DNA of 39,729 nt, from the UHGV virus genome UHGV-0230849; one strand, written 5' to 3'. The notes under the pieces were generated by a model. The model searched no databases and was not told the origin of the DNA. It saw only the letters and a program-made list of their open reading frames with translations. Positions within the stretch are counted from its first letter, which is position 1; every line of letters starts with the position of its first letter. Positions 23,574 through 38,462 of this stretch are shown one piece after another. The translations under genes and the position numbers were made by a program. Origin of the DNA: a virus.

Positions 23574-23575
23574 CT

Positions 23576-23619
23576 TATGCGAATAGTGTTGCTCATTTGC
23601 TCAATGATGTCAACACGTT
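23576..23619 (-). promoter_or_regulatory. Candidate late promoter PR' / Q-utilisation region
   Basis: TTGACA (rc of 23608-23613) just after the Q stop; -10 element not convincing; placement by analogy to lambdoid late regions. Confidence 0.35.
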
Positions 23620-24111
23620 CTATGCTACATGTTTAATTTTCTCTACACGTTTCCGGTTTTTAAACGCACTATCCAGAACCGGGTAAATCATAAACAACGA
23701 GGCATTGAGGATTTCGTCAACTTCCCGGCGACAGGTTGCGAGCGATGGTTTTTGAATGCGCCCGCCGCCCCGGCATAACATCTTGCGAGGTCTTGCGACG
23801 CGATGATAGTAAGATGCAATGGCGTGCTTGGAAGATCCATGGGCGTAGTAGCTGAGGAGGATACCAAAGGCTTTCTTGTCAATGTACATGACGGAATCGA
23901 CGACCTGAGAAATCAACATTCCATCATCATCATTACACATTGGCCTTGCCATAACTCTTCCCGGCTCTACGCTCTCCATGAACTTCGCTATTACGCTGCT
24001 CATGCGCTTTTCCAGACGACCTGAATAAACCCATGCTCCCCACAGTTCAAGCCAGCCATTCAGCCAATCGTGCTGTTCTTTGGTGAGGTTTAGTTCTCTT
24101 ATGCTCATCAT
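23620..24111 (-). CDS. Q: Late antiterminator Q (Q82/quuD-type family)
   Basis: LELWGAWVYSG and RPMCNDDDGMLI motifs resemble DLP12 QuuD-type Q; sits directly upstream of the late promoter and S. Confidence 0.75.
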   Translation of the reverse strand: MMSIRELNLTKEQHDWLNGWLELWGAWVYSGRLEKRMSSVIAKFMESVEPGRVMARPMCNDDDGMLISQVVDSVMYIDKKAFGILLSYYAHGSSKHAIASYYHRVARPRKMLCRGGGRIQKPSLATCRREVDEILNASLFMIYPVLDSAFKNRKRVEKIKHVA

Positions 24112-24289
24112 CTCCCTCTCTTGCCCTGTTTGACCATCAGGACGCCGTTAACTATTACGTGACGTTCGCCTTTGCTGTCTCGGTTGTACTTGAGCACCGT
24201 TCCTCTTGCGCAGGAAAGCGTCCTCGCCACTTCGGTCTAATTGCCTCGTGTCTGGATAAGAAGCTCTGGTATCGTTTGAATTGTGGCGT

Positions 24290-24652
24290 TCATACGTTCT
24301 CCAGTTCGGTGATTTTTATTCCAAGCCGTCCGCCTGGTACTTTCACACCACGAATTACGCGAATGTCATCGAATTGCTCGTCGTCTTCCGCAAATCCGGC
24401 GTGGATAAGGGAGTCGAGTAAACCTTTCAGGATGTTATCGAGGTCGCGGCGGCGGGAGTCTGGAACGTCTGCGATGACTTTGATGCGGAGTCGTGATTTG
24501 GTGAAAATGTCTAACTTGAGTTGGCGGATGATTTTCTGAACGTCTTTTCGGTATTTCTGGCCTTTATCGCTTATGTAATATTGGCTTCCCCGTCTTCGCC
24601 AGTAGGTATTCACCGACGGCGGGTATGGAAGCACAAACTGATATTCGTTCAT
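24290..24652 (-). CDS. rusA: Holliday-junction resolvase RusA
   Basis: PYPPSVNTYW...DSRRRDLDNILKGLLDSL...GGRLGIKITE matches RusA family; 120 aa. Confidence 0.9.
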   Translation of the reverse strand: MNEYQFVLPYPPSVNTYWRRRGSQYYISDKGQKYRKDVQKIIRQLKLDIFTKSRLRIKVIADVPDSRRRDLDNILKGLLDSLIHAGFAEDDEQFDDIRVIRGVKVPGGRLGIKITELENV

Positions 24653-24939
24653 GACTTAATCTTCCCCTCCTTCAGCAGTATCGCCTGCGTCCTGATCACG
24701 CCTTCGAGGTGGTAAAGTCTGGCGTCTTTGTTGTCGAGGTTATGGGTGCGTCGGTCGATTTCATCGTGACACGCACTACAAGCCCATGCGCCGATCAGGT
24801 CGTCAGGTTTCATTCCCGCTCCGCAAATTCCAGCCATCCGGTAATGTGCCAGAACTGTAGTTTCAGGATTACCATTGCATACGCCGTAAATACGTACCTG
24901 GCATTCTCTGCCGCGTGCTTCTTTGCGTAGGTTAGCCAT
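24649..24939 (-). CDS. ybcO: YbcO-like nin-region protein (DUF1364)
   Basis: MANLRKEARGRECQVRIYGVCNGNPETTVLAHYR...CSACHDEIDRRTH resembles DLP12 YbcO; 96 aa. Confidence 0.8.
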   Translation of the reverse strand: MANLRKEARGRECQVRIYGVCNGNPETTVLAHYRMAGICGAGMKPDDLIGAWACSACHDEIDRRTHNLDNKDARLYHLEGVIRTQAILLKEGKIKS

Positions 24940-25144
24940 TTACCTTCCCTCGCAATTGAAGAATTGACTGAAGGTCTTTTTTAATAAATATGCGAGTGCG
25001 AATTGAGCAGTAGTTTTCCTTCATTCTGGCGTAGTAATAGTCCTTTCGTTGCTTAAGCTTGTTGGCATCCGCTGTCATCCAGTCTTTTACAGCAAACTTA
25101 ATTAACCAGCGGTGGCAGAGATACCATTTCATGTAATCACTCAT
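24932..25144 (-). CDS. Hypothetical nin-region protein (70 aa)
   Basis: ATG overlaps the end of ninF; operon orientation. Confidence 0.5.
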   Translation of the reverse strand: MSDYMKWYLCHRWLIKFAVKDWMTADANKLKQRKDYYYARMKENYCSIRTRIFIKKDLQSILQLRGKVNG

Positions 25145-25313
25145 CGTCTTCTTCCTCGTACATTGAGCTATTCGGATCGCTCATCAGTTCTGCGCAGCAG
25201 TGCTCACACACGTGAACTTCCAGCACATGCAGCTTCTGACCGCAGTTAGCGCACGTTAAAGCTCGCTCGACGCTTTCTTTCTGGTATTGAAGGGATTGGG
25301 ATGGGCTAAGCAT
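25137..25313 (-). CDS. ninF: NinF (58 aa; not in the ORF track because under 60 aa)
   Basis: Hand translation gives [58 protein letters not shown], matching lambda NinF. Confidence 0.85.
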   Translation of the reverse strand: MLSPSQSLQYQKESVERALTCANCGQKLHVLEVHVCEHCCAELMSDPNSSMYEEEDDE

Positions 25314-25678
25314 TATTGGATTCTCTGCATCATGAGAAAGACAATCATGGCGGCGCGGAGGGGATTTTCATGTATAGCTCGCTTAGATTTACAGTAGGCC
25401 ACACCGCGTGCACCCCACTCGTCTTCATCGAGATTGATAATGCTAATCCTGTATTTTTCAATAATCGGCCATGCGTCTGCTGGGTTTGCGCATGGGTTAA
25501 AGGATCCGCGCTCAACTTCTACTTCAACTGCGTCTCCGTTTACAATGTCTCCCTCAAATGAGACAAACACCATATCGCCATTCTCACCTTCTTTGTAATC
25601 CGGTGATCCGTTATGAATGGCTTCGAATACCGCCACGTTAATTTCAAAATCACTTAACTGTGAATAATCCATTGTCAT
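25313..25678 (-). CDS. Hypothetical nin-region protein (121 aa)
   Basis: Operon-oriented ORF between ninE and ninF; family uncertain. Confidence 0.55.
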
Positions 25679-25851
25679 TTCCTCGCACGTTCTCTAAGCC
25701 ACCGGATATCCCACAGGTGAGCCGTATAATTGAAGGTTTTTACGTCAGATTCTTTTGGGATTTGCTTGCGTTTATTTCTGGAGCGTTTCGTTGGAAGGTA
25801 TTTGCAGTTTTCGCAGGTTATGTCGGTGATGCTTCGTCGCTGTCGTCTCAT
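25675..25851 (-). CDS. ninE: NinE (start at [10 protein letters not shown])
   Basis: [58 protein letters not shown] matches lambda NinE. Confidence 0.85.
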
Positions 25852-26288
25852 GCCGCCCTGTCTCCCCATCTTGCTTTCCACTCCAGAGCCAGTCGAGCTT
25901 CGTCTGACCACTTAACGCCACGCTCTGTACCGAATGCCTGTATAAGCTCTAATAGCTCCGCAAATTCGCTTACACGCATCCTGCTGGTTGACTGGCCTAT
26001 TACCACAAAGCCATTCCCGGCAAGGTTAGGAACAACGTCCTGCTGCTTTAATGCTGCTGTAAAAACGCACTTCCAGCTTTCTGCATCCAGCCAGCGACCA
26101 TGCCATTCAACCTGACGAGAGACGTCACCTAAGCAGGCCCATAGCTTCCTGTTTTGGTCTAAGCTGCGGTTGCGTTCCTGAATGGTTACTACGATTGGTT
26201 TGGTTGGGTCTGGAAGGATTTGCTGTACTGCGTGAATAGCGTTTTGCTGATGTGCTGGAGATCGAATTTCAAAGGTTAGTTTTTTCAT
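25848..26288 (-). CDS. ninB: NinB (Orf-family recombination mediator)
   Basis: 146 aa, matches lambda NinB. Confidence 0.9.
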
Positions 26289-26481
26289 GACTTCCCTCTC
26301 TAACAGATTTCAGGTTATTCCACTCCGTTACCGCACTGCGATAATTCGCGGCCGCCACAGCAGCGTGGTTAGCGCAGTAGATTTGGCACCCGTTCTCCAT
26401 GTCGAATATTGTCGGTGATTTTCCGCATTTACATTTTTTGGCACGCGGTGCGTCTGAACACATTCCGTTAACGGTGTTCAT
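26269..26481 (-). CDS. Hypothetical Cys-rich (zinc-ribbon-like) protein (70 aa)
   Basis: CKCG...C..YCANH pattern; RBS-like GAGGGGGA upstream. Confidence 0.5.
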   Translation of the reverse strand: MNTVNGMCSDAPRAKKCKCGKSPTIFDMENGCQIYCANHAAVAAANYRSAVTEWNNLKSVREGSHEKTNL

Positions 26482-26562
26482 CAGGATCCCCCTCGCTCTT
26501 AATCCAATAAAAAAGGGCTACTGTGTAAATAGCCCCTGTTATTAGCTCAGTGATGTAGATGG

Positions 26563-27939
26563 TCATACGTCAGCCCCTTGTGCATATCGTCTGCCACGTG
26601 CAGCGGGTGCATTTGATGTTGTGCAAATCTGTCTGGCTTCATCCTGGTCACATGCAACAAAGTGTCCGTTGCAGAACCTCTGGTAAACCGTACCAAGCGA
26701 GCCAAAACGGTTTTTCGTCACAATGATTTCAGCAAATGGCGCGGCGCTACTGTTCTCGTCATATACCGCTTCCCGATAGAGCATGATGATTGAGTCTGCG
26801 TCCTGTTCAATGCTTCCTGAATCACGCAAATCTGCGTTTGTCGGGCGTTTGTTTGGTCGCTTCTCAACATCGCGTGAAAGCTGACTTAGGGAGATAACAG
26901 GCGTTTTCAGGTCTTTCGCCATCGCCTTCAGGCTTCCTGAGATGTGAGCAATTGCGAGGTCGTTGCGGTCTGCTTTCGGCTTCTCAATCAGGCCAAGATA
27001 ATCTGCCATGATGAGTGACAGGTTTGGATTTTCCTGTTTGTGCCGTTCTGCGATTGAGCGAATTTCTTCGACCGATAACCGCGAGGCATCGACTACCCAT
27101 ACATCCAAATCTGCAAGCTGACTCATGCCTTTAGCAACACGTGCCCAGCCCTCGTCATCCATCGATGCAGGATTTCGCAGTACGCTAACCGACATCCTCC
27201 CGGCGTTGGCGATGCTTCGCTCTGCAATCTGCAATGCGCTCATTTCCATCGAGAAAATCAACACTCCGCGCCGAACGTCAGAACCAGGGATAACGCGGCT
27301 TGCAACGCCTTCGGCAATCTTCAGCGCCAGCTCGGTTTTCCCCATACCAGGACGAGCGGCGATAATCACCAGGTCTTCCGCGTTCATCCCTCCGGTGATG
27401 ACATCAAGTTCTTCGATTCCGGTCTTCAGGGTATCTGACTCTTCTCCGTTCCTCAGACGCCTGTCAAGCGTGTCAGTGTAGTCAGTGATGATTTCCCCTA
27501 ACCGTACAGGTTTAACCTCGTCACGGGGCTTTCTGATGGCTGAAAGACGCTTTACAAGCTCGTCCATCGCCTGACTCGATGTATCGATGGTTCCGCTCTG
27601 AATTGGTTCACGCATTTCATCCATGATTTCCAGCACCAGACGGCGGTGATAGTTATCCGCGACCATTCCGGCATATCCCTTCAGGTTTGCGGCGCTCGGG
27701 CAGTTTTTGCTGGTCATCAGGATTGACGTGAAATGCTCCTCTCCGCACGCCTCGGCAACCATCAGCGCGTCGATTAGGTTTCTGTTTCGCGCCTGCTTGC
27801 GGATAACCTCGAAGGCTTTCCGGTAGAGCGGAATTGAAAACGCTTCCGGCTCCAGTGTTGCCAGAACGTCGCTGGCGGTTGGAGTTAATCCACCAATCAG
27901 CAGGCCACCGATAACACTCGCTTCGATATCCTGTCTCAT
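26563..27939 (-). CDS. Replicative DNA helicase, DnaB family (P22 gp12-like)
   Basis: 458 aa with Walker A (GMGKT) and DnaB C-terminal motifs. Confidence 0.9.
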
Positions 27940-28883
27940 GCAATCCCCCTGTCTGCAAACTTCCCTTCCCGCACTCCCGTTAACGAGTCTTCTCTCAGCA
28001 GGTAATCAAAATCAGCCGTCCAGCCCGTGTCGTTGTCTCCGAAGTAAAACGGCTTGGCCTGATGCACAAACGCCCTGACATACGCTCTGAAACCGTCCAC
28101 GTTTGGCGTTTTCAGTTGCGGAATGATTTTCTTCAGGCGACGCTTGCGTTTCTCGTTGACCGCAACAGCGTGTGGAAGTCTGTCACCGACTTCGGTGTTG
28201 TAGGCGTTCAGGAAGGATTCGTAGTCGATGCGTTCTGCCTTGCGACGTTCGGGTTTAACCTGCCCATCGCCTCCCCCATTGGGGGGTAGGGGGGTATTAT
28301 TTATATTCTTGTTAATACCTTCTTGTTCATGATGTGCGGTTGTTTGTGCGGCTTCATGTGCGCTTTCATGTGCGGCATGTACTCTGAAAGCCGCGCCATT
28401 ACTGGCTTCGTCATGTGCGGCATCATGTGCGGTTGTTTGTGCGGCTTCATGTGCGGGTGAATCGTCCATTTTTTGAGCATATTCATGGTAATTTGTGATG
28501 GTAATCACACGACCTTTTTGCTTCTCTCCATCAATGGTGATCATCCCCTCTTTCACAAAAACCTGAAGCATCCGCTCAACCTGATCGCGGCTTGCTGGCT
28601 TGCCATGCCTGTCGCATAACTGAAGACCTAAATCAGCTGCTGTCACAACCAGTTGACCGGGTTGCAGATGCCATTCATGACCTTTGAAATTCGCTTTGTA
28701 TGGCTTTCTGGCGGCATTCAGGAGAAGGTTTTCCCACAGGGTGCGAAGATAAACATCTTTCGCCCATGACTGTTTCAGAATGCTCCGGTACAACGGAATG
28801 TAACCAGTTTTCTGGTTCTCCATCCTGTTGCTCCTGCGCTCGTGTGCGGCGCTGAAATCGTAGATTTTTGCTGTATTGCTCAT
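27936..28883 (-). CDS. Replication initiation protein (O / P22 gp18-like), contains ori iterons
   Basis: 315 aa immediately upstream of the helicase; internal repeated peptide arising from DNA iterons. Confidence 0.8.
28270..28470. repeat. ori: Origin-like iteron array with adjacent AT-rich segment, inside the initiator gene
   Basis: Multiple copies of (t/c)atgtgcgg and a duplicated ~33-bp block (28331-28363 and 28424-28457), plus AT-rich 28295-28330 and G/C palindrome cccccattgggggg. Confidence 0.7.
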
Positions 28884-28885
28884 AA

Positions 28886-29158
28886 CTACCTGCCTTGACG
28901 AAAGACCTTAAGAACATCGTTAAACTGACTTACGGATATGTCTTCTTTGAGCAGCTTTTCCAGAAATGCGTTTGGAATGAACGTATATCCCTCCTCTTTT
29001 GGTAGAGACGGGAGCAACGCCCTCGCCTCAGCCTTCAGAAGCTCAGTTCTGGCAACTTTCACAAAAGAGATTTGAGTTCTTTCATCAATGGAACGAAGGA
29101 AGCGCAAACGCTTAACTTCTTTGTGTGTATCAGGTGGATTAAAGCCTTTGTTTCGCAT
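28886..29158 (-). CDS. Hypothetical protein (90 aa) inserted between cII and the initiator gene
   Basis: ATG at 29158 with GAGG 8 nt upstream; stop abuts the initiator start. Longer 193-aa ORF-track version rejected. Confidence 0.55.
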   Translation of the reverse strand: MRNKGFNPPDTHKEVKRLRFLRSIDERTQISFVKVARTELLKAEARALLPSLPKEEGYTFIPNAFLEKLLKEDISVSQFNDVLKVFRQGR

Positions 29159-29180
29159 ATAATTACCTCGTTGGATGTTG

Positions 29181-29474
29181 TTAAAATTCCATTTGTATTT
29201 GATCAGAACGCTCGGTTGCCGCCGGGCGTTTTTTATTGGTGAGAATCGAAGCAACTTGTCGTGCCAATCGAGCCATGTCGTCGTCAACGACGCCCCATTC
29301 AAGAACAGCAAGCAGCATTGAGAACTTTGGAATCCAGTCCCTCTTCCACCTGCTGATCTGCGACTTATCAACTCCCACAGCTTCCGCTGTCTTCTCAGTT
29401 CCAAGCATTGCGATTTTGTTAAGCAACGCACTCTCGATTCGTAGAGCCTCGTTGCGTTTGTTTGCACGAACCAT
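29181..29474 (-). CDS. cII: Transcriptional activator CII (start at MVRANKRNEALRIES)
   Basis: Near-identical to lambda CII (97 aa). Confidence 0.95.
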   Translation of the reverse strand: MVRANKRNEALRIESALLNKIAMLGTEKTAEAVGVDKSQISRWKRDWIPKFSMLLAVLEWGVVDDDMARLARQVASILTNKKRPAATERSDQIQMEF

Positions 29475-29543
29475 ATGTAAGTATTTCCTTAGATAACAAT
29501 TGATTGAATGTATGCAAATAAATGCATACACCATAGGTGTGGT

Positions 29544-29575
29544 TTAATTTGATGCCCTTTTTCAGGGCTGGGATG
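29544..29575 (-). promoter_or_regulatory. nutR: nutR (boxA CGCTCTTAC and boxB GCCCTGAAAAAGGGC)
   Basis: Reverse complement of 29567-29575 is CGCTCTTAC; rc of 29544-29558 is the boxB hairpin. Confidence 0.85.
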
Positions 29576-29592
29576 TGTAAGAGCGGGGTTAT

Positions 29593-29802
<210 letters not shown>

Positions 29803-29808
29803 TTAGTA

Positions 29809-29879
29809 CATGCAACTATTATCACCGCTAGAGGTAAAATAGTCAACACGCACGGTGTTAGATATTTATCCCTTGCGGT
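29809..29879. promoter_or_regulatory. OR: Right operator OR1-OR2-OR3 with divergent PR and PRM
   Basis: OR1 tatcaccgctagaggta (29811-29827), OR2 caacacgcacggtgtta (29835-29851), OR3 tatcccttgcggtgata (29858-29874); PR -10 GATAAT and -35 TTGACT on minus strand. Confidence 0.9.
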
Positions 29880-29890
29880 GATAGATTTAA

Positions 29891-30607
<717 letters not shown>

Positions 30608-30693
30608 GTCCGCAGCAAGAGACTTTATACGCATCTAGATGTAGGAAATAAAAAAGCAGATCCCTACAATAAAAATAAGGAAATCATTAAGAT

Positions 30694-31599
30694 ATGTCGA
30701 TTAACAGCAATAGCGAATCCCTGCATCAAATGCAGCTTTTCCCTGTAGTAGAGGTTGTTTCTGATGATATTCCTATGGGCGTTCTCAATGATGGAACTCC
30801 TTACCTAACTCTCTACGGTCTCGCAAAGTTATGCGGCATTGATGACACGCCACTGAGGGTGTTCACATCAAACTGGAACACAGAGAAAAACAAACCCAGA
30901 GGTCAAAAAGTAGCTGCGTATTTAGCTGAGAAAGGGTTTCATAACGTCGAAAAGCTATACACTCGCGTTTTAAATAGCTCAAACGTGGAAACTCATGCTT
31001 ATCCTGACTATGTTTGCATGGCTATCCTCCGTTACTACGCTCTAGATGCCACCAATTTTGATAGGTCAGTCGCAATAGGTAATTTTGTTCGCTTGGCTGA
31101 GTACACGCTTAAGCGAATGATTTATGAAAAGTCAAATTACAACCCAAATGCTTCAATAGATATCTCATTCGAGAACTATAGAGCAAGGATTAAGCTAAAC
31201 GATCAGATACCGACAACTCATTTTGCAGTATTCAGAGAGATAGCTGACATTGCCATGAATCTGATCGGAGGAGGATTCCCAATGGATGACACCACATCTT
31301 TGGATGGAAGTGTTGGAATTCACTGGGGAAAGTATTGGACAGCTAATGGGCTATCTGAGAAATTCGGGGAAAGGGTGCAGTACCCACATCTATTCCCCGA
31401 AAATTACAGGCAGTCAGCTGCAAATAAGCATATAACAGCTTGGATTTATCCTATTGAGGCACTTGGCGTGTTCAGAAAATGGCTACACGATAATTACGCA
31501 ATGGAAAAACTGCCAAATTACCTTGGGAACAAAAAGATTAGTAACGCCTCTGAGCTATTAGAGTCGATAAAAAAACCAGCACTCCCAAATAAGCATTGA
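30694..31599 (+). CDS. 301-aa protein at the rexAB position; candidate BstA-like abortive-infection protein with KilA-N/Bro-N-like N-terminus
   Basis: Same strand as cI, RBS AAGGAAAT, followed by a terminator; not RexA/RexB-like; N-terminal ...VVEVVSDDIPMGVLNDGTPYLTLYGLAKLCGIDDTPL... Confidence 0.5.
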   Translation: MSINSNSESLHQMQLFPVVEVVSDDIPMGVLNDGTPYLTLYGLAKLCGIDDTPLRVFTSNWNTEKNKPRGQKVAAYLAEKGFHNVEKLYTRVLNSSNVETHAYPDYVCMAILRYYALDATNFDRSVAIGNFVRLAEYTLKRMIYEKSNYNPNASIDISFENYRARIKLNDQIPTTHFAVFREIADIAMNLIGGGFPMDDTTSLDGSVGIHWGKYWTANGLSEKFGERVQYPHLFPENYRQSAANKHITAWIYPIEALGVFRKWLHDNYAMEKLPNYLGNKKISNASELLESIKKPALPNKH

Positions 31600-31612
31600 T
31601 CTCCACCACAGC

Positions 31613-31638
31613 CCGGCATCTGCGCCGGGTTTTCTTTG
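31613..31638 (+). terminator. Rho-independent terminator ending the cI operon
   Basis: cccggc-atctgc-gccggg followed by ttttctttg. Confidence 0.75.
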
Positions 31639-31786
31639 CCTAACGCCCCAAAAAACACATAACCAATTGTATTTATTTTAAAATTAATAGATACAACTCG
31701 CTAAACATCGCAATTCAGATCTCTCGATCACCTTCCCAATCCACACAACCCTGCAAAAAATAAATCTATATAAAAAACATACAGAT

Positions 31787-31857
31787 AACCATCTGCGGTG
31801 ATAAATTATCTCTGGCGGTGTTGACATGAATACCACTGGCGGTGATACTAAGCACAT
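31787..31857 (+). promoter_or_regulatory. OL: Left operator OL3-OL2-OL1 with promoter PL
   Basis: aaccatctgcggtgata, tatctctggcggtgttg, taccactggcggtgata; -35 TTGACA (31821-31826), -10 GATACT (31844-31849). Confidence 0.9.
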
Positions 31858-31888
31858 CAGCAGGACGCACTGACCACCATGAAGGTGA

Positions 31889-31919
31889 TGCTCTTAAAAA
31901 TTAAGCCCTGAAGAAGGGC
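31889..31919 (+). promoter_or_regulatory. nutL: nutL (boxA-like GCTCTTAA and boxB GCCCTGAAGAAGGGC)
   Basis: boxB hairpin at 31905-31919 preceded by a boxA-like element. Confidence 0.85.
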
Positions 31920-32077
31920 AGCATTCAAAGCAGAAGGCTTTGGGGTGTGTGATACGAAACGAAGCATTGGCCGGAAGTGCGAATCCGGATTAGCTGCCAA
32001 TGCGCCAATCGCGGGGTGTTTTCGTTCAGGACTACGACTCCCACACACCACCAAAGCTAACTGACAGGAGAATCCAG

Positions 32078-32404
32078 ATGGATGCACAAACACGCCGCCG
32101 CGAACGTCGCGCAGAGAAACAGGCTCAATGGAAAGCAGCAAATCCCCTGTTGGTTGGGGTAAGCGCAAAACCAGTTAACCGCCCTATTCTCTCGCTGAAT
32201 CGCAAACCGAAATCACGAGTAGAAAGCGCACTGAATCCGATAGACCTTACGGTGCTGGCTGAATACCACGAACAGATTGAAAGCAACCTGCAACGTATTG
32301 AGCGCAAGAATCAGCGCACATGGTACAGCAAGCCACGCAGTGAAATGGGTGTGACTTGTGTTGGTCGCCAGAAAATGAAATTAGGCAGCAAACCACTTAT
32401 TTGA
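32078..32404 (+). CDS. N: Antiterminator N (lambda-like N-terminus, divergent C-terminal ~25 aa)
   Basis: MDAQTRRRERRAEKQAQWKAANPLLVGVSAKPVNRPILSLNRKPKSRVESALNPIDLTVLAEYH... matches lambda N; C-terminus differs. Confidence 0.9.
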   Translation: MDAQTRRRERRAEKQAQWKAANPLLVGVSAKPVNRPILSLNRKPKSRVESALNPIDLTVLAEYHEQIESNLQRIERKNQRTWYSKPRSEMGVTCVGRQKMKLGSKPLI

Positions 32405-32412
32405 GGTGATAT

Positions 32413-32664
32413 ATGGAATTTCATGAAAGTGCGATTTGTGATTTTCGCGCTAACGCAAATTCAGTAAAACCACAGCCAATTGCAGTTCTTTTTAAAACAA
32501 TGGGTGCGTGGGCTGTTTTATGCTTCGCCGCTGATGACACTGACGCAAGAATGGCAATAGGCCAAGAGATGGAGATGGACCCGACAAACGATGAATTCAT
32601 AATTTATGGCGCTCCATCTAATTACTTACTTGATACCTGCAACATTTACAACAAGGCTGCCTGA
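32413..32664 (+). CDS. Hypothetical protein (83 aa) immediately downstream of N
   Basis: GAGGTGA RBS; at the ral/sieB position of lambda but not similar to Ral. Confidence 0.5.
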   Translation: MEFHESAICDFRANANSVKPQPIAVLFKTMGAWAVLCFAADDTDARMAIGQEMEMDPTNDEFIIYGAPSNYLLDTCNIYNKAA

Positions 32665-32800
32665 TGGTGGCCTTTATTTTTGGCATAAATAACAGAATAA
32701 ACACTGCACTGTGTATTCATTCCAACGAGTGAATACACGGAGCAATGTCGCTCTTAACTAAACAGGAGCCGACTTGTTCTGATTATTGGAAATCTTCTTT

Positions 32801-32826
32801 GCCCTCCAGTGTGAGGGCTTTTTTAT
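32801..32826 (+). terminator. Rho-independent terminator (tL1-like)
   Basis: gccctc-cagtgt-gagggc followed by tttttt. Confidence 0.8.
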
Positions 32827-32890
32827 ATGCATACCAATAACGCTTCACTCGAGGCGTTTTCGTTATGCAATCAAACAGAAGGAGCATCCT

Positions 32891-33061
32891 ATGCAACAGT
32901 TCGCTATTGCAGGGGCGGCATCGGTTCGCCCTTTCAACCCGATTTTATCGGTACAGCATTCACGAAAAAACATTCTAACCGGAGCAGACTTTAAACAACC
33001 AAGAATGAAAAGCTTGCTCGAAAAGATTTGGGATATTTTGAAACAACAAGGCCGTCCATGA
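32891..33061 (+). CDS. cIII: CIII-like protein (56 aa)
   Basis: MQQFAIAG...SLLEKIWDILKQQGRP resembles lambda CIII (MQYAIAG...LIDILNQPG); AAGGAG RBS; longer ORF-track start rejected. Confidence 0.6.
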   Translation: MQQFAIAGAASVRPFNPILSVQHSRKNILTGADFKQPRMKSLLEKIWDILKQQGRP

Positions 33062-33171
33062 GTTTTACAGATAACTGGTCAGACGAAGAATTCATTCGTC
33101 AGATGAACAAAATGCTCAATCAGCACAAAGAACAGGAGAAAGATGATTATTCTGACTCTGAATGATAAGCG
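33058..33171 (+). CDS. Possible small ORF (37 aa) coupled to cIII stop (ATGA overlap)
   Basis: Hand translation MSFTDNWSDEEFIRQMNKMLNQHKEQEKDDYSDSE; at the kil position of lambda; no homology claimed. Confidence 0.3.
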
Positions 33172-33454
33172 TGAAATATCGCAAATAATCGCAAGTTTTA
33201 CTGATGAAGATTACGAACGAATCAACAGTGAAGTTGATCGTCTCTGCAAACGTTGCGACCCAATAAGCGAAATGCTTCGCTCATATAAACCAGATGAACA
33301 CACTAAGGACGCTATCGACTGGCTGGAAGATGATGACTGTAACTATCAGGAAAAAGCCGCTGAATGGTTCTGGGATGCAATAACCGAAAGAGTTAAGGCT
33401 GAATATGCCTTCGCAATATTCAAACGCAGACACATTTATGGAGAAGCAGCATGA
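33143..33454 (+). CDS. Hypothetical protein (103 aa)
   Basis: AGGAGAAAG RBS; overlaps RecT start by ATGA. Confidence 0.55.
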   Translation: MIILTLNDKREISQIIASFTDEDYERINSEVDRLCKRCDPISEMLRSYKPDEHTKDAIDWLEDDDCNYQEKAAEWFWDAITERVKAEYAFAIFKRRHIYGEAA

Positions 33455-34353
33455 GCAATATCGTTGAATTCGTTAAACAGCAGGAGCAGTTATTCTGCGG
33501 AGCATTGACTGAACAGACGGTGACATGGGCTAAGGAAAGCCAGTTTGCAATTCAGTATTTCCAGAAAAATGATTACCTGGCTAAAACGGCACTGGCAAAT
33601 CCAACCAGCGCACAGAACGCCATCATCAATGTTGCGGCGATCGGTATCACCTTAAACCCGGCTAGCAAACTGGCTTATCTGGTTCCGCGCGACGGCATGG
33701 TTTGCCTTGATATCAGTTACATGGGGTTACTTCATCTTGCGCAATCGACAGGATCAATTAAGTGGGGGCAATGCAAACTGGTGTACTCAAACGACACCTA
33801 TGAATCAAATGGCCTTGATTCAGCACCAACCCACAAATACAACGCATTTGGTGAGCGAGGCTCTATTGTTGGTGGTTATTGTACGGTTAAAACAGCAGAT
33901 GGTGACTACCTGACTGAAGAAATGAGTCTGGCAGAAATTAAAGCTGTGGAAGCAACGAGCAAGGCAAAGAATGGACCGTGGAAAACATTCTGGGAAGAGA
34001 TGGCACGTAAAACAATAGTTAAACGCGCCAGCAAATACTGGCCTAAAGCCCAGCGACTGGATAATGCCATTCACCTGCTTAACGAAGATGAAGGTATGCA
34101 TCAGGAACCAGTTATGCCGCACAAATCAGAGGAAGATATCCGCGAAGATGAACGGAAACGCCAGCAGGAAATAATGGAAAAAGCACAACTTCTTTGTGAT
34201 GAAATGACTCAGGCTGAAAACATGGATGATTTGAAGAGATATTTTGCAGAAGCATATCGCCTGACATCTGGAATGAAATTGCAGCAGAACATACAAGCCA
34301 TTTACGCAGAATGCAAAGCGAAACTGGAGGTTGCCAGTGAGCAAACTGTATGA
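33451..34353 (+). CDS. recT: RecT-family single-strand annealing protein
   Basis: GPWKTFWEEMARKTIVKRASKYWP resembles the RecT signature (GPWVTHWEEMAKKTAIRRLFKYLP in Rac RecT). Confidence 0.8.
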   Translation: MSNIVEFVKQQEQLFCGALTEQTVTWAKESQFAIQYFQKNDYLAKTALANPTSAQNAIINVAAIGITLNPASKLAYLVPRDGMVCLDISYMGLLHLAQSTGSIKWGQCKLVYSNDTYESNGLDSAPTHKYNAFGERGSIVGGYCTVKTADGDYLTEEMSLAEIKAVEATSKAKNGPWKTFWEEMARKTIVKRASKYWPKAQRLDNAIHLLNEDEGMHQEPVMPHKSEEDIREDERKRQQEIMEKAQLLCDEMTQAENMDDLKRYFAEAYRLTSGMKLQQNIQAIYAECKAKLEVASEQTV

Positions 34354-34819
34354 AATTGCCAATGAATACGCAAAATTGATGGATTCAGATTTAGAGCCAG
34401 AGATGATTGCTGACACAATAGAAGGCATGGAAGGAGAATTTACCGATAAAATAGAGCAACTTCTTGCCATTATTAAAAATGAGTCTGGTTATGCTGAACG
34501 CCTCAAGGAAGAGGCAAAGTCACTGAATGAAAGAGCAGCAGTAATTCAAAATAAGATTGATAGCATTATGACGTATATAGCGTCATCGCTTGAAATGGTT
34601 GGAAAGAAAAAGATTCGAGCAGGTATTCACCAGGTAACAATCCGCAAACCGTCAGAAACTGTAGAAATCATCGACTCAAGCGCCCTTCCTCCAGAATACG
34701 TTGAGTTTGAAACAACAATTAAAGCCGACAAACTGGCAATCAAACACCAACTAAAAGCAGGAATAAATATCCCCGGCGCTCAACTCAAAGTTGGGAAACC
34801 TTCACTTCTTATCAAATAA
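34337..34819 (+). CDS. Gp157-like protein (Sipho_Gp157 family), GTG start
   Basis: MSKLYEIANEYAKLMDSD... with GGAGG 6 nt upstream of GTG; Gp157-type proteins commonly accompany RecT/Sak recombinases. Confidence 0.6.
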   Translation: MSKLYEIANEYAKLMDSDLEPEMIADTIEGMEGEFTDKIEQLLAIIKNESGYAERLKEEAKSLNERAAVIQNKIDSIMTYIASSLEMVGKKKIRAGIHQVTIRKPSETVEIIDSSALPPEYVEFETTIKADKLAIKHQLKAGINIPGAQLKVGKPSLLIK

Positions 34820-34830
34820 CGGTATCGCCT

Positions 34831-35145
34831 ATGAAAAAGAATCCATGGGAGAAATGGGAAGTCGATTTCTTACGCGAAGTAGCGGCGACAATGCCAGTTG
34901 AAGTTATCGCTGAAAAACTGGAAAGGACTGAAAAAGCAGTAATGGCGAAAGCAACAAGGATTGGCGCTGACATTGTTAGCCGACTTCGTGGAAGACGATG
35001 GACAAGAGCCGAAGTATCACTTTTCGGTAAGTTCTCCGCAGAAGAAATAGCAATTGCAACCTGCCGCTCAATTTATTCAGTAAGGGCTATGCGATACAAG
35101 CTAAAAAAACTCGATGAAGAAAGAGCAGGCATACGAATAAATTAA
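34831..35145 (+). CDS. Hypothetical protein (104 aa)
   Basis: Operon-oriented ORF; no family assigned. Confidence 0.5.
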
Positions 35146-35161
35146 CAAAGAGGAATTTACC

Positions 35162-35326
35162 ATGAGAGGACTTGCATACAATCCCGGCATTCTTCCGGCA
35201 GAAATGATTATTCGCCAACGAGTAAAGCCAATGCCATCGAGAGAGGAATTGCTTAAGAGAAATTCTTTTCCATCAGTGAATCAAAACAAATATCTGAATG
35301 CGATGTTGCGGAGTGGGAAGAAATGA
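35162..35326 (+). CDS. Possible small ORF (54 aa), under the ORF-track cutoff
   Basis: AAGAGGAA RBS then ATG at 35162; stop overlaps next gene start (ATGA). Confidence 0.35.
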
Positions 35327-35874
35327 AACAAATGTCACTAATTGAGATGGATGGTTTTCTGAAAGGTAAATGCATCCCACGAGATTTAAAGGTTAACGAA
35401 ACAAACGCTGAATATCTGGTGCGTAAGTTCGGTGAAGCGGAGGCCAAGATTTCGGCTCTGTCCGAAGACCAGCAGAGAGCGATTGAGTCAATTAAGCAGG
35501 CTGATGCGGCTGTTAAGTTGGCACACGAGAAGTTTTCGGCGCTGGCGGCGGAGAATGAACTGGCTCGTAAGGCAGTTCAGGCATTCTGCGATGTTGTTGG
35601 CGACAACACCGAGGTTATCGCTGAGGTGGTTGGGCGAGATGGCGTTCTGGTTATTTTGGAGGCCATGAAGGCAACAGGAAATATGCCAGCCACCGATGCT
35701 TTTCTGGCTGAAGTACGGGCGCAGGGCGTGGAGATGCTGGCAAAAAATCATCAGAGTATCGTCAATGCACTTAAGGGAGATTCTTTATTTTCTGATGGTG
35801 AATACCGACATGCAGCTATTGTTTCCGCAGCTGTATATTTCGCTGCAGAGCTTCGCAAAGGAGGCAACCAGTGA
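35323..35874 (+). CDS. Hypothetical protein (183 aa)
   Basis: Operon-oriented ORF, helical/Ala-rich; no family assigned. Confidence 0.5.
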
Positions 35875-36170
35875 CGGTATGTCTTATTGATAAACGTCGA
35901 CGTGGGCAACAAATACCATCTGTTGAAATGCCGAATCACACATGGTTTTGCGTACTTGATATCGATGGTATTGATACGTTGGTTGACACTCGTCATTACT
36001 GCGATACCGCAACAGCTACTCCGGCGAAAGCAAAGAAAATGGCTGCTCTGATAGAAAACTGGACTCCACCTGATGGTTGGTGCAATGGGAATGATCGAGA
36101 TTGGCATGAAAAAATGAAGGGCTATATCTGCGATTTCTTACGTAAATGCAACGGCTTCAGGGTGATGTGA
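35871..36170 (+). CDS. Hypothetical protein (99 aa, GTG start)
   Basis: AAGGAGG 7 nt upstream of GTG; GTGA overlap with previous stop. Confidence 0.45.
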   Translation: MTVCLIDKRRRGQQIPSVEMPNHTWFCVLDIDGIDTLVDTRHYCDTATATPAKAKKMAALIENWTPPDGWCNGNDRDWHEKMKGYICDFLRKCNGFRVM

Positions 36171-36171
36171 T

Positions 36172-36924
36172 ATGACCAAAATTAACTATCAGGCACTGCG
36201 TGAAGCGGCAGAAAAAGCAACGTGTGGTGTGTGGTCGCTCGAATATGGAGAGGAGAGATTTGATGCTGGTGATGCGCTAATTCATCGCGAGGCTGCTGGA
36301 TATATTCCCATTTGCAGAATTGAAGGAGCGCATCCTGAAAGCGGTTTCGATGAAGATTTCCAAATGGAACAGCAGGCCAATGCTGAATTCATCGCCGCAG
36401 CCAGTCCAGCTACCGTGCTGGCACTGCTGGATGAACGGGAAAGAAACCAGCAATACATAAAACGCCGCGATCAGGAGAACGAGGATATTGCGCTTACGGT
36501 TGGGAAGCTGCGCGTTGAGCTGGAAGGCAAAGACAGCAAAATAGCCAATCTTACCGCCGAACGCGATGCTCTTCGTGAAGGTGAGATGGGCGACGCTAGG
36601 CATAGCAACACACGGGCCGCAGCTGATATCTACTTCCAACTGGTCGAGGAGTGCGAAATTCCTGCTGGCGGATCTCTGGTCGAGTACGTTGACGATATGC
36701 GCGAGAAGCTGGAAGCCGCAGAGAAGCGCATAGCAGAGTTAGAAAGTGATTCTCAGGCACAAAAGTTAGTTGAAGCAATCATTGTTGCGATAGAAAACGA
36801 ACAGGAACGTCTTTTTGATGAAGATTACCTAATGGATTCGAAAGAATGCATTGACGTAATTCGTGAAGAAGTAAAGCGATGGAATGATTCCCGCACCGCT
36901 GGCATTCGCATCAAAGGAGAGTGA
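36172..36924 (+). CDS. Ead/Ea22-like protein
   Basis: N-terminal MTKINYQALREAAEKAT... typical of Ead/Ea22-like prophage proteins; acidic coiled-coil C-terminal part. Confidence 0.5.
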   Translation: MTKINYQALREAAEKATCGVWSLEYGEERFDAGDALIHREAAGYIPICRIEGAHPESGFDEDFQMEQQANAEFIAAASPATVLALLDERERNQQYIKRRDQENEDIALTVGKLRVELEGKDSKIANLTAERDALREGEMGDARHSNTRAAADIYFQLVEECEIPAGGSLVEYVDDMREKLEAAEKRIAELESDSQAQKLVEAIIVAIENEQERLFDEDYLMDSKECIDVIREEVKRWNDSRTAGIRIKGE

Positions 36925-36925
36925 T

Positions 36926-37522
36926 ATGAGCGCTATAACCAAAGAACGTATCGAATTATTCATTAAAAATCCGCTTGATAACGGGCTTACCCGTGGCGAA
37001 CAAATGGAACTGGCACGAATTGCACTGGCATCACTGGAACGCGAACAGATTCGCCACGAGCATGCCAAATGGTCTGACTCCACATTTGGCTGCGTTGGCC
37101 CCATTGGTCCGCTGAAACATCTCTCAAAAGAGGCACTGGAAGCCGAAGCCGAACCAGACGATCTTAGCGAGTGGGCTGATATGCAGTTTCTGTTGTGGGA
37201 TGCACAGCGCCGTGCTGGCATCAGCGATGCTGAAATTACCGCTGCTATGGAAGATAAATTGAAGATCAACATGGAGCGCCAGTGGCCTGAGCCAAAAGAT
37301 GGTGAGCCTCGCTTGCACATTAAAGAACCCGGCAACTCTCCGGTAATTCCGGATGGTTGGGTTATGGTGCCGAAGGAGTTAACCCCGGAAATGATGAGAG
37401 CCGTTCAGATTAGAAGTGAGCTTGGAGGGTATGCCACTTCCAATCTATCTGGTGCATACAATATGTTTTCTGAGTTCTGGAATGTTGCTGTCTCAGCTGC
37501 GCCTAAGGTGGATGATTTATGA
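36926..37522 (+). CDS. DUF550-like protein (MazG-like dATP/dGTP pyrophosphohydrolase-type N-terminal domain)
   Basis: FG...LKHLSKEALEAEAEPDDLSEWADMQFLLWDAQRRAGI...KLKINMERQW resembles DUF550 signature; start at MSAITK. Confidence 0.5.
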   Translation: MSAITKERIELFIKNPLDNGLTRGEQMELARIALASLEREQIRHEHAKWSDSTFGCVGPIGPLKHLSKEALEAEAEPDDLSEWADMQFLLWDAQRRAGISDAEITAAMEDKLKINMERQWPEPKDGEPRLHIKEPGNSPVIPDGWVMVPKELTPEMMRAVQIRSELGGYATSNLSGAYNMFSEFWNVAVSAAPKVDDL

Positions 37523-37821
37523 ATCTATATCGCTGCCCATTCTGTGGTTCCACTGTGCTTAACATCGGATACTCATTCAGTATCAGAGGGAAAATGCGCT
37601 ATGTGTCATGCAAATGTGGTGCCCAAGGACCAGAAAAACGAACTAAATCTGAAGCGATTTCTTCATGGAATAGTCGAATGAAAGTATGGGTTTATGATCC
37701 AGAAACAATATTAAACGTTGAAGAGCGCAGGAGAACGGAAGTCTATATTCATAACCTTAATGAAGATGGATTTACACCAGTGCTTGTAAAGGCTACTCCG
37801 CAGGAGGTTAACCGTGGCTAA
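37519..37821 (+). CDS. Lar-family restriction-alleviation protein (zinc-ribbon)
   Basis: MNLYRCPFCGS...CKCGAQGPEKRTKSEAISSWNSR matches the Lar-family pattern CPFCG...C.CGA.GP...A...WN.R. Confidence 0.65.
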   Translation: MNLYRCPFCGSTVLNIGYSFSIRGKMRYVSCKCGAQGPEKRTKSEAISSWNSRMKVWVYDPETILNVEERRRTEVYIHNLNEDGFTPVLVKATPQEVNRG

Positions 37822-37908
37822 CCTACAACTTGCCGTCAAAGGTGAATAACAATCCTCGCACTCGCGGGGATTTCTTTTATCTGAACTCGCTACGGCGGGT
37901 TTTGTTTT

Positions 37909-38220
37909 ATGGAGATGATTATGGCCTGTTCAACATTCAACCCTCTAACGTTACAGAAATACCAGCCAGACCCTGAAGATTTATGCTCACTGTGTGGCGG
38001 AAATCATGGTAAAGCCGCCATGATCGAATGTAAGGACAAAATCCACATATGTCTTAATTGCGTTGATGTCCTCGTTGATATCAAAAATGAAAGAGAAGAT
38101 AAAAAGCGTAGCGAGGCTATTCGCGCCTTAGATTCATGGATGCGAGATGGGTATAGTGCTGCGCAAATTTATGACTTAGCCATTTCAAAAGGCGAAATAC
38201 CAGGTGTGCGAATCGAATAA
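37909..38220 (+). CDS. Hypothetical Cys-rich protein (103 aa)
   Basis: CSLCGGNHG...CLNC pattern; function unknown. Confidence 0.45.
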   Translation: MEMIMACSTFNPLTLQKYQPDPEDLCSLCGGNHGKAAMIECKDKIHICLNCVDVLVDIKNEREDKKRSEAIRALDSWMRDGYSAAQIYDLAISKGEIPGVRIE

Positions 38221-38255
38221 GAAGCGCACTCAAGCATCTTTTGGAGAAATCACAA

Positions 38256-38423
38256 ATGCACTTCCGAGTCACAGGTGAATGGAATGGAGAGCCATTCAAC
38301 AGAGTTATCGAAGCCGAGAACATCAGCGACTGCTATGACCACTGGATGCTGTGGGCGCAGATAGCACATGCAGACGTAACCAATATTCGAATTGAAGAAC
38401 TGAAAGAACACCAAGCCGCCTGA
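38256..38423 (+). CDS. Hypothetical small protein (55 aa)
   Basis: GGAG 9 nt upstream of ATG at 38256; stop inside the following terminator. Confidence 0.4.
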   Translation: MHFRVTGEWNGEPFNRVIEAENISDCYDHWMLWAQIAHADVTNIRIEELKEHQAA

Positions 38424-38437
38424 TGGCGGTTTTTTCT
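38415..38437 (+). terminator. Rho-independent terminator upstream of xis
   Basis: gccgcc-tgat-ggcggt followed by tttttct. Confidence 0.75.
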
Positions 38438-38462
38438 TGCGTGTAATTGCGGAGACTTTGCG

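What the first reader, a model, noticed from the sequence alone, without database searches (positions are those of the whole stretch)
30694..31599. rexAB replaced by a single 301-aa gene, candidate BstA-like abortive-infection protein
In lambda the genes co-transcribed with cI are rexA-rexB. Here cI is followed by a 301-aa ORF with its own RBS and terminator that is unlike RexA/RexB and has a KilA-N/Bro-N-like N-terminus. Size, domain flavour and position next to the repressor match the BstA family of prophage defence proteins described in Salmonella and E. coli prophages; such genes may carry an internal anti-BstA (aba) DNA element.
Basis: inference. Interest (0 to 1): 0.8.

Follow-up and report, generated by a model that had tools for sequence, protein, structure and literature searches.

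The report
Known BstA phage-defence gene replacing rexAB
The gene after the lambda-type repressor is a full-length BstA abortive-infection defence gene that the 2021 BstA paper already catalogued, so the finding is correct but not new; comparing about 120 related loci also predicts where its self-immunity DNA element (aba) lies.

Summary
ORF 30694-31599 (+, 301 aa) follows a lambda cI that differs from lambda's by one residue. Homology to lambda stops at the cI stop codon (30607) and resumes at 31612, one base past rexB. A 1004-bp cassette therefore replaces rexA-rexB exactly.

The protein is a full-length BstA: PADLOC BstA E=1e-105, PHROG 6287 E=6e-133, and 42% identity to the founding BstA of Salmonella phage BTP1.

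It is already known. The identical gene in E. coli 2012C-4431 is in Owen et al. 2021 Table S1. The primers used to clone the tested BstA-Ec match this locus. RefSeq names the protein "BstA C-terminal domain-containing protein".

Added value: the aba element is predicted at 30659-30725. It consists of direct repeats GATCCCTACA / AATCCCTGCA spaced 57 bp apart across the start codon, as CCCGCC repeats (56 bp) flank the mapped BTP1 aba. The 56/57-bp spacing is family-wide (48/72 and 28/52 non-redundant loci, against about 4 expected). The repeat sequences are allele-specific. Between them lies a conserved motif resembling the IHF consensus. In E. coli the aba and the N-terminal domain are inherited together, separately from the C-terminal domain.

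The parts
29894..30607 (+). cI repressor gene with lambda immunity (237 aa)
   Evidence: ORF. 99.5% DNA identity to lambda over 29400-30607, and one amino-acid difference (T3A). The homologous CL707 record annotates PRM and oR1-3 just upstream. PR lies at 29846-29818 on the minus strand.
30608..31611 (+). bstA cassette that occupies the place of lambda rexA-rexB
   Evidence: Lambda homology ends at 30607 and resumes at 31612, which equals lambda 35824. The cassette is 100% identical in E. coli CP024289 and CP074031 and 99.2% identical in phage CL707.
30659..30725 (+). Predicted cognate anti-BstA (aba) DNA element (inferred)
   Evidence: It has the same geometry as the mapped 63-bp BTP1 aba (PMC8585504). 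The 56/57-bp repeat spacing is family-wide. The element lies inside the fragment, starting at 30608, that conferred cognate immunity for BstA-Ec. It is invariant in 8 window-type E. coli/phage loci.
30659..30668 (+). aba repeat R1 (GATCCCTACA), non-coding
   Evidence: It lies upstream of the in-frame TAA at 30688-30690.
30677..30694 (+). Conserved middle site: AAGGAAATCA (contains the Shine-Dalgarno AAGGA) and the IHF-consensus-like AATCATTAAGATA (30682-30694; 2 mismatches to WATCAANNNNTTR)
   Evidence: This is the positional homolog of AATCAAATGGTTA in the BTP1 aba. The motif is conserved across the family, in forward orientation only.
30716..30725 (+). aba repeat R2 (AATCCCTGCA), codons 8-11 of bstA
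   Evidence: It starts 57 bp after R1. The hairpin CTGCATCAAATGCAG at 30721-30735 overlaps it.
30694..31599 (+). bstA coding sequence (301 aa): disordered tail 1-13, KilA-N/APSES-like N-domain about 16-147, BstA C-terminal domain about 157-300
31610..31640 (+). Intrinsic terminator, the counterpart of lambda Timm
   Evidence: Homologous to the lambda sequence just after rexB. Annotated as Timm in CL707.
31787..31849 (+). oL3 (31787-31803), oL2 (31807-31823), oL1 (31831-31847) and PL (31821-31849)
   Evidence: Sequence read; promoter scan; lambda and CL707 annotation.
32078..32404 (+). Antiterminator gene N
   Evidence: ORF. Lambda homology extends to 32379. CL707 and PGAP annotation.

Best explanation
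Window 30608-31611 is a bstA-aba cassette, a known prophage-encoded abortive-infection defence with built-in self-immunity. It sits in the rexAB slot of a prophage with lambda immunity.

In the lysogen, bstA is most likely co-transcribed with cI from PRM. This is inferred: there is no terminator and no plus-strand promoter-like site between the two genes. BstA would then be made constitutively.

When an unrelated phage infects, BstA relocates to the replicating phage DNA and blocks its replication. The infected cell dies without releasing progeny. This was shown for BstA of BTP1, Klebsiella and E. coli NCTC10963 by Owen et al. 2021. It applies here by near-identity.

When this prophage is itself induced, a short DNA element overlapping the 5' end of bstA (aba) neutralises only its cognate BstA. 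I predict this aba at 30659-30725. It has two allele-specific direct repeats (R1 GATCCCTACA, R2 AATCCCTGCA, 57 bp apart). They flank a family-conserved middle site that resembles an IHF site.

For: Membership:
- PADLOC BstA 1.3e-105 and PHROG 6287 6e-133.
- 42% identity to BstA-BTP1 over the full length, E=5e-84.
- 116 homologs, all carrying PF26567 and some named 'BstA-like C-terminal domain-containing protein'.

Already catalogued:
- CP024289 382841-383737 is in Owen Table S1. It is 100% identical to the window.
- BstA-Ec cloning primer NW_761 equals window 30608-31 exactly.
- E. coli ECO3183 carries both primer sites exactly and encodes the identical protein WP_000026554.1.
- All window-type alleles differ by 0-3 residues.

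Context:
- The lambda breakpoints are exact. The terminator and PL are in place.

Fold:
- It also matches phage Bro-N, KilA and antirepressor models.

aba:
- R1 and R2 lie at 30659 and 30716, with the same geometry as the BTP1 CCCGCC repeats. Measured from the conserved AAGGAAA core, R1 is 16-17 nt upstream and R2 is 40 nt downstream.
- A direct repeat of >=7/8 at spacing 56/57 occurs in 48 of 72 non-redundant loci. Block shuffles give 4.4+-2.0, other spacing pairs give at most 15, and the gene body gives 5-7.
- This is replicated in 28 of 52 independent IMG/VR loci.
- R1 and R2 agree within a locus (9.7/14) but not between loci (4.1/14).
- R1 is necessarily non-coding in 41 of 67 loci.
- The middle site matches WATCAANNNNTTR perfectly in 12/43 loci and with <=1 mismatch in 26/43. 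Shuffles give 0.06 and 1.6. Matches are in forward orientation only and at a fixed offset.

E. coli mosaics:
- CP53-type BstA has different repeats (GATCnCAG) and differs only within residues 1-95. Residues 96-301 are identical.
- The O111-type shares the CP53 5' module but has a different C-domain.
Against: - No experiment was done on this sequence. The NCTC10963 sequence itself could not be retrieved, so identity to the tested BstA-Ec is inferred from primers and from allele diversity.
- The aba of BstA-Ec was never mapped. In the window the middle site is a poor IHF match (2 mismatches). R2 differs from R1 at 2 of 10 positions.
- Similarity to the IHF consensus is a resemblance, not a binding test, and Owen et al. 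do not mention IHF.
- The loci compared are homologous. Part of the conservation is therefore shared ancestry, and the counts are not independent events.
- The association between the N-domain and the repeat type could reflect physical linkage alone.
- Owen et al. saw BstA foci unchanged in the presence of high-copy aba, which does not favour simple titration.
- The Shine-Dalgarno sequence lies 12 nt from the ATG, which is rather far.
Confidence: 0.88

Rival explanations
1. The protein is a KilA-N/Bro-N-type antirepressor or transcriptional regulator of the prophage (Ant-like), not a defence protein. The repeats around its start codon would then be its own operator sites for autoregulation.
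For: The N-domain fold matches include phage antirepressors, 'repressor domain' proteins and KilA proteins, with BFVD E-values of 6e-4 to 0.1. Direct repeats around a start codon would suit an autoregulatory operator.
Against: The full-length homology is to BstA, including the C-terminal domain PF26567 that antirepressors lack. The tested homologs, including an E. coli allele with 0-3 differences, give abortive infection. In BTP1 the repeat-bearing element acts as DNA that suppresses BstA (PMC8585504). Autoregulation and self-immunity are not mutually exclusive.
Confidence: 0.04
2. The 57-bp-spaced repeats are not a DNA element. They would reflect a 19-residue peptide repeat in the N-terminal tail, or an RNA or translational control structure. 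The true aba of this allele would then lie elsewhere in 30608-31660.
For: 57 nt equals 19 codons. In 26 of 67 loci, mostly alphaproteobacterial, an in-frame start upstream of R1 is possible, and both repeats would then encode KEIT/KEIS. The aba of BstA-Ec has never been mapped.
Against: R1 is necessarily non-coding in 41 of 67 loci, including the window, where a TAA lies at 30688-90. In BTP1 the repeats were shown to act as DNA: single-base changes abolish function, and neither peptides nor transcription are required. There is no Rfam match. RNA folding of 30640-30745 is unremarkable, z = -1.3. The repeats keep exact nucleotides, including synonymous positions, and the middle motif is conserved whether it is coding or not.
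Confidence: 0.1
3. The gene is a decayed or silent passenger. It is homologous to BstA but is not expressed or not active in this prophage.
For: No expression data exist for this window. The Shine-Dalgarno-to-ATG spacing is long (12 nt). Some E. coli copies are clearly inactivated, for example by IS1 in ECO2947.
Against: The ORF is intact and full length. All 52 family-invariant residues of alignment A2 are present by construction of that alignment. The identical protein is seen on 645 contigs. The cassette is conserved at 98.5-100% across unrelated strains, with 0-3 amino-acid changes. The position after cI gives PRM read-through, as for rexAB.
Confidence: 0.05

Closest known systems
BstA-Ec of E. 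coli NCTC10963 (gene E4V89_RS07420; Owen et al. 2021, PMC8585504)
   Same: Same cassette at the same cI junction. Cloning primer NW_761 matches window 30608-30631 exactly, and NW_762 matches 31639-31660 except for a homopolymer and 2 bases. Alleles of this type differ by 0-3 of 301 residues. Owen et al. showed that it confers phage defence and that its locus carries a cognate aba.
   Different: The window's downstream spacer is the CCCC/ACAC variant rather than CCCCC/ACGC.
BstA-BTP1 (ST313-td, STMMW_03531) with its 63-bp aba, Salmonella phage BTP1
   Same: 42% identity over the whole protein. Same position after the repressor. Same aba geometry: terminal direct repeats, the AAGGAAA(A)TCA core, and an element that straddles the start codon.
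   Different: The repeat sequence is CCCGCC rather than ATCCCT, and the spacing is 56 rather than 57 bp. The ATG lies 6 nt closer to the core. The middle site in BTP1 is a perfect WATCAANNNNTTR match, whereas the window has 2 mismatches. Cross-immunity is not expected, because aba elements are cognate.
Lambda RexA-RexB
   Same: Same genomic slot with exact breakpoints. Presumably the same PRM-driven expression in lysogens, and the same broad role as an abortive-infection exclusion system.
   Different: No sequence similarity. It is one protein instead of two. RexAB acts by membrane depolarisation, whereas BstA blocks phage DNA replication (PMC8585504 discussion).
Phage CL707 immunity-region ORF CL70704 (EF120459; Degnan et al. 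2007)
   Same: Protein 100% identical, DNA 99.2% identical, and the same cI-ORF-Timm-PL-N layout.
   Different: It was deposited as 'hypothetical protein', before BstA was described.
KilA-N / Bro-N / APSES DNA-binding domains

Membership tests
BstA (prophage abortive-infection family, Owen et al. 2021) | Full-length sequence homology to BstA proteins, covering both domains | tested here: met
   PADLOC BstA 1.3e-105, profile positions 4-281 of 292. PHROG 6287 6e-133, positions 3-304 of 304. 42% identity to BstA-BTP1, E=5e-84. The same gene is listed in Owen Table S1.
BstA (prophage abortive-infection family, Owen et al. 2021) | [quoted passage not shown] | tested here: met
   The AF2 model (pLDDT 82.5) has an N-domain at about 16-147 and a C-domain at about 157-300, with a pLDDT dip at 150-160. 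The N-domain gives weak KilA-N/APSES-like fold matches. E. coli mosaics recombine within or after the N-domain.
BstA (prophage abortive-infection family, Owen et al. 2021) | Located in a prophage, typically immediately downstream of the repressor gene | tested here: met
   The gene starts 86 nt after the cI stop codon, inside a complete lambdoid prophage with Int, RecT, O/DnaB-like and morphogenesis genes.
BstA (prophage abortive-infection family, Owen et al. 2021) | Cognate aba DNA element overlapping the upstream region and 5' end of bstA, with terminal direct repeats | tested here: inconclusive
   In sequence terms the feature is present: GATCCCTACA and AATCCCTGCA lie 57 bp apart across the ATG, with family-wide support. 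Function as aba was not tested, and the BstA-Ec aba has not been mapped.
BstA (prophage abortive-infection family, Owen et al. 2021) | Confers population-level phage resistance by abortive infection and blocks phage DNA replication | not testable with these tools
   This was shown for BstA-Ec, BstA-Kp and BstA-BTP1 in PMC8585504. It applies here only by near-identity.
KilA-N domain (Pfam PF04383) / Bro-N | Match to the curated Pfam model | tested here: not met
   No Pfam family matches at E<=10. The protein is only fold-level 'KilA-N-like', as the original paper also states.
RexA/RexB exclusion system | Sequence homology to RexA or RexB; two-gene arrangement | tested here: not met
   BLASTP against lambda RexA gives a best E-value of 0.056 over 53 residues. 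There is a single gene. Lambda DNA homology is absent across 30608-31611.

The most novel reading that the evidence does not exclude
The aba self-immunity element may have a conserved three-part architecture across the whole BstA family. Two allele-specific direct repeats lie 56-57 bp apart and would act as the specificity determinants. They flank a conserved site that looks like an IHF binding site, in fixed orientation. A host-induced DNA U-turn at that site would present both repeats to a BstA dimer. [quoted passage not shown] If true, the cognate aba could be predicted for any bstA allele (here 30659-30725). It would also explain how cognate pairs diversify.
Probability: 0.45. Interest if true: 0.65.

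Novelty: already known. Interest (0 to 1): 0.35.

Why it matters
For the window itself, the result is an annotation. The prophage carries a characterised type of abortive-infection defence in the classic rexAB slot. The same gene from E. coli 2012C-4431 is already in the founding paper's dataset, and an allele with at most three differences was tested there.

The value beyond that lies in the open question Owen et al. left: what aba is, and how it can be cognate. The comparison here turns the single mapped BTP1 element into a family-wide rule: repeat, conserved IHF-like core, repeat, with 56/57-bp spacing. It predicts the element for the untested alleles.

It also points to a natural experiment. 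Window-type and CP53-type BstA have identical residues 96-301 but different repeats and different N-terminal modules. This makes the specificity question directly testable with a few plasmids.

Tried and rejected
1. aba as a mimic of the prophage's own replication origin. The window's ori-type iterons are 12-bp CATGTGCGG units at 28326-28468 inside the O-like gene. They are unrelated to ATCCCTRCA. ATCCCT is not enriched in the window, 15 sites against 15.1 expected. The only other exact ATCCCTACA lies inside int at 39382. My recollection that lambda iterons begin with ATCCCTCAAA is from memory only, and it is irrelevant here because this prophage has a different O/ori.

2. Further R-like sites near the locus. 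None was found with <=2 mismatches in 30591-30790.

4. Pfam and NCBIfam scans of the protein gave no hit.

5. Later literature on the aba mechanism. None was found in the searchable library.

6. Dam (GATC) sites in the repeats. GATC occurs in both repeats in 9 of 67 loci. This is not clearly above background, and GATC is absent from the BTP1 aba.

7. Retrieving NCTC10963. It is not in the complete-genome collection, so identity to BstA-Ec rests on primers and allele diversity.

8. Identifying the exact source genome of the window. No complete E. coli genome covers more than 69% of 20000-39729.

Full report
**Observation**

The ORF is real and lies at the stated coordinates: 30694..31599 on the plus strand, ATG start, 301 aa. 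It follows a 237-aa repressor gene (29894..30607) after an 86-nt spacer.
- AAGGA lies at 30677-30681, and an in-frame TAA lies at 30688-30690.
- An intrinsic terminator follows the ORF. Its stem is at 31610-31631 with a T-tract, at -15 kcal/mol.
- Next come oL3, oL2, oL1 and PL (31787-31849) and N (32078-32404).

Blastn against lambda fixes the replacement precisely.
- Window 29400-30607 is 99.5% identical to lambda, up to the last base of the cI stop codon.
- Homology resumes at 31612, which equals lambda 35824, the first base after rexB.
- The repressor differs from lambda cI only at T3A.

So a 1004-bp cassette (30608-31611) replaces the 1402-bp rexA-rexB segment. The protein is unrelated to RexA.

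**What it is**

The protein is a full-length BstA.
- PADLOC's BstA model matches residues 8-286 at E=1.3e-105.
- PHROG 6287, 'BstA abortive infection system, replication inhibitor', matches residues 5-301 at E=6e-133.
- It aligns end to end with the founding member, BstA of Salmonella phage BTP1: 42% identity, E=5e-84.
- A large-database search returns 116 relatives. All but one truncated hit (P0098, 174 aa) carry PF26567.
- The exact sequence is seen on 645 contigs. UniRef names it 'BstA-like C-terminal domain-containing protein'.
- The local Pfam and NCBIfam copies have no model for it.

**It is already known**

- Table S1 of Owen et al. 2021 (PMC8585504) lists E. coli O178:H19 2012C-4431, CP024289 382841-383737, among its 72 BstA homologs. 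Window 30608-31700 is 100% identical to CP024289 383826-382734.
- The experimentally tested E. coli homolog, BstA-Ec from NCTC10963, was amplified with primer NW_761. Its 3' part, GTCCGCAGCAAGAGACTTTATACG, equals window 30608-30631 exactly.
- The reverse primer matches window 31639-31660 apart from a C-homopolymer and two bases.
- E. coli ECO3183 carries both primer sites exactly and encodes the identical protein, WP_000026554.1.
- All eight window-type loci examined differ from the window by 0-3 residues.
- RefSeq already names this protein 'BstA C-terminal domain-containing protein'.
- The same ORF, 99.2% identical in DNA and 100% in protein, was deposited in 2007 as a hypothetical protein in the immunity region of the wild lambda-immunity phage CL707. 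Owen et al. explicitly discuss the cI-N hotspot and rexAB synteny.
- Among 5426 complete E. coli genomes, 43 carry the gene. They fall into three allele groups: window-type 10, about 93.5% identity 23, and 78.6% identity 10.

**Fold**

An AlphaFold2 model built on a 16-sequence alignment has mean pLDDT 82.5. It shows a disordered tail (residues 1-13), an alpha/beta N-domain (about 16-147) and a mostly helical C-domain.

Foldseek against viral models finds antirepressor, Bro-N and KilA proteins at E-values of 6e-4 to 0.1. The C-domain has no recognisable relative.

**The aba element in the window**

In BTP1 the aba is a 63-bp DNA element. It spans 29 bp upstream plus the first 34 bp of bstA. 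It has CCCGCC at both ends, and single-base changes in either copy abolish function.

The window has GATCCCTACA at 30659-30668 and AATCCCTGCA at 30716-30725, 57 bp apart across the ATG. When both elements are aligned on the shared core AAGGAAA(A)TCA, the geometry agrees. The first repeat starts 16 nt (BTP1) or 17 nt (window) before the core. The second repeat starts 40 nt after the core start in both.

This region is invariant in the eight window-type loci, apart from one C/A polymorphism 3 nt upstream of R1. It lies inside the fragment, starting at the base equivalent to 30608, that made P22 immune to BstA-Ec.

**Family-wide test**

I fetched 71 bstA loci from species-representative genomes and 5 from phages. 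In each I scanned the 160 nt ending 20 nt before the conserved MGVL codon.
- Among 72 non-redundant loci, 53% have a direct repeat of >=7/8 at a spacing of exactly 57, and 15% at 56. The mean at any other spacing from 15 to 110 is about 4%, with a maximum of 15%.
- Taking spacings 56 and 57 together, 48 of 72 loci are positive. Block shuffles give 4.4+-2.0 (maximum 9). Any other spacing pair gives at most 15. The gene body gives 5-7 of 72, and the region further upstream gives 1 of 70.
- An independent set of 52 non-redundant IMG/VR loci gives the same two top spacings: 57 in 20 loci and 56 in 11. Other spacings average 2.0, with a maximum of 8.
- The repeat sequences differ between alleles: ATCCCT, GATCnCAG, CCCGCC, GATCCC, GGTCAC, CCGCCAG, GGGCAGCA, AAGGAAATCAnn and others. 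The two copies within a locus still agree, 9.7 of 14 positions within loci against 4.1 between loci.
- In the alphaproteobacterial AAGGAAATCAnn class, the trailing dinucleotide changes in step in both copies: CC/CC, GT/GT, GC/GC, AT/AT.
- R1 is necessarily non-coding in 41 of 67 loci. A 19-residue peptide repeat therefore cannot be the general explanation.
- There is no Rfam family and no unusual RNA fold.

**Middle site**

Between the repeats, 23-28 nt after R1, there is a motif conserved whether it falls in coding or non-coding DNA. The IHF consensus WATCAANNNNTTR is cited from my own knowledge of the literature.
- The motif matches that consensus perfectly in 12 of 43 loci, and with <=1 mismatch in 26 of 43. 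Shuffles give 0.06 and 1.6+-1.3 (maximum 6).
- Matches occur in the forward orientation only; the reverse strand has 1 of 43.
- The mapped BTP1 aba contains a perfect match, AATCAAATGGTTA.
- The window has AATCATTAAGATA at 30682-30694, with 2 mismatches. The CP53-type has AATCAATAACATA, with 1 mismatch.
- Owen et al. do not mention IHF.

This is a resemblance that generates a hypothesis. It is not evidence of IHF binding.

**E. coli mosaics**

- The CP53-type allele has repeats GATCTCAG / GATCGCAG at the aligned positions.
- Its protein differs from the window's only within residues 1-95. The tail is 4/18 identical, and there are ten substitutions in residues 20-95. Residues 96-301 are identical.
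- The O111-type allele shares the CP53 5' module (aba plus residues 1-95) but has a diverged C-domain, 125/147 identical.

So aba and the N-terminal module travel together, and the C-domain recombines independently. Across 65 loci, pairs that share a repeat type have higher N-domain identity at matched C-domain identity: 0.58 against 0.43, 0.70 against 0.48, and 0.73 against 0.63. This fits the N-domain reading the repeats, but physical linkage alone could also produce it.

**Mechanism**

What has been shown, in homologs by Owen et al.:
- BstA is made constitutively in lysogens.
- It relocates to infecting-phage DNA, blocks that phage's replication and aborts the infection.
- aba DNA on a replicating element suppresses only its cognate BstA.

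What is inferred for this window:
- Co-transcription with cI from PRM. There is no terminator and no plus-strand promoter-like site between the two genes.
- The aba at 30659-30725.
- Repeat recognition by the N-domain.
- A bend at the middle site that brings the two direct repeats into a roughly two-fold arrangement for a BstA dimer.

This last step is speculative. Owen's observation that BstA foci persist with high-copy aba argues against simple titration.

**Verdict**

The novelty class is 'already known', and interest in the finding itself is low to moderate (0.35). The most novel reading not excluded is the family-wide three-part aba architecture with allele-specific repeats and an IHF-like core. 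I give it a probability of about 0.45 as a functional model, with an interest of about 0.65 if true.

Noticed in passing
window 28326-28468 (inside the O-like replication gene 27936-28883, minus strand): An array of about 8 copies of a 12-bp unit containing CATGTGCGG. These are probably the ori iterons of this prophage. They also encode a His/Ala-rich repeat in the O-like protein (PF04492). They are unrelated to the aba repeats.
   Followed up: partly
window 30721-30735: A perfect 6-bp-stem hairpin, CTGCAT-CAA-ATGCAG, overlaps aba repeat R2. The terminator scan flagged it. Its significance is unknown, and it is not seen in other alleles.
   Followed up: no
window 39382-39390: A third exact copy of ATCCCTACA lies inside the integrase gene (38659-39729). 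The window holds 3 matches to ATCCCTRCA against 0.56 expected, counting the two aba copies. This copy is probably chance.
   Followed up: partly
window 32413-32664: An 83-aa ORF immediately after N, with no Pfam match, sits where other lambdoid phages carry sieB, ral or Nmad5-type accessory genes. It may be another moron slot.
   Followed up: no
window 33451-39729: The early-left region encodes RecT (33451-34353), Gp157 (34331-34819), Ea22-like (36172-36924), a dATP/dGTP pyrophosphohydrolase (36884-37522) and a lambda-type integrase that runs to the window end. No complete E. coli genome covers more than 69% of 20000-39729, so the prophage is a mosaic.
   Followed up: partly
L082 (E. coli ECO2947, CP046259) 1248-2100; L003 (CP53) 827-1807: In ECO2947 an IS1 insertion removes the aba and about the first 30 codons of bstA. 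In CP53 an IS5 sits in the cro/cI region while bstA stays intact. These are examples of decay around this cassette.
   Followed up: partly
L081 (E. coli 2013C-4538) 1855-1915 and L003 2830-2910: CP53/O111-type loci have an extra 32-nt stretch and two palindromes upstream of R1: ATCGCATATGCGAT and TCGCCATATAGGCGA. Both contain the R-like ATCGC/GATCGC motif. They may be additional binding sites. The window-type spacer has a CATCTAGATG palindrome instead.
   Followed up: no
L002 (E. coli PK12, CP074031) 5305-6992: The identical bstA cassette sits behind a different repressor (231 aa, WP_001302016.1) whose last 18 nt match lambda cI. So the cassette moves between immunity types, with a junction inside the 3' end of the repressor gene.
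   Followed up: partly
L091 (IMGVR_UViG_3300045988_041964, 39748 bp): This IMG/VR viral contig is almost the same length as the window and encodes a 100% identical BstA. The window may be this prophage or a sibling of it.
   Followed up: no
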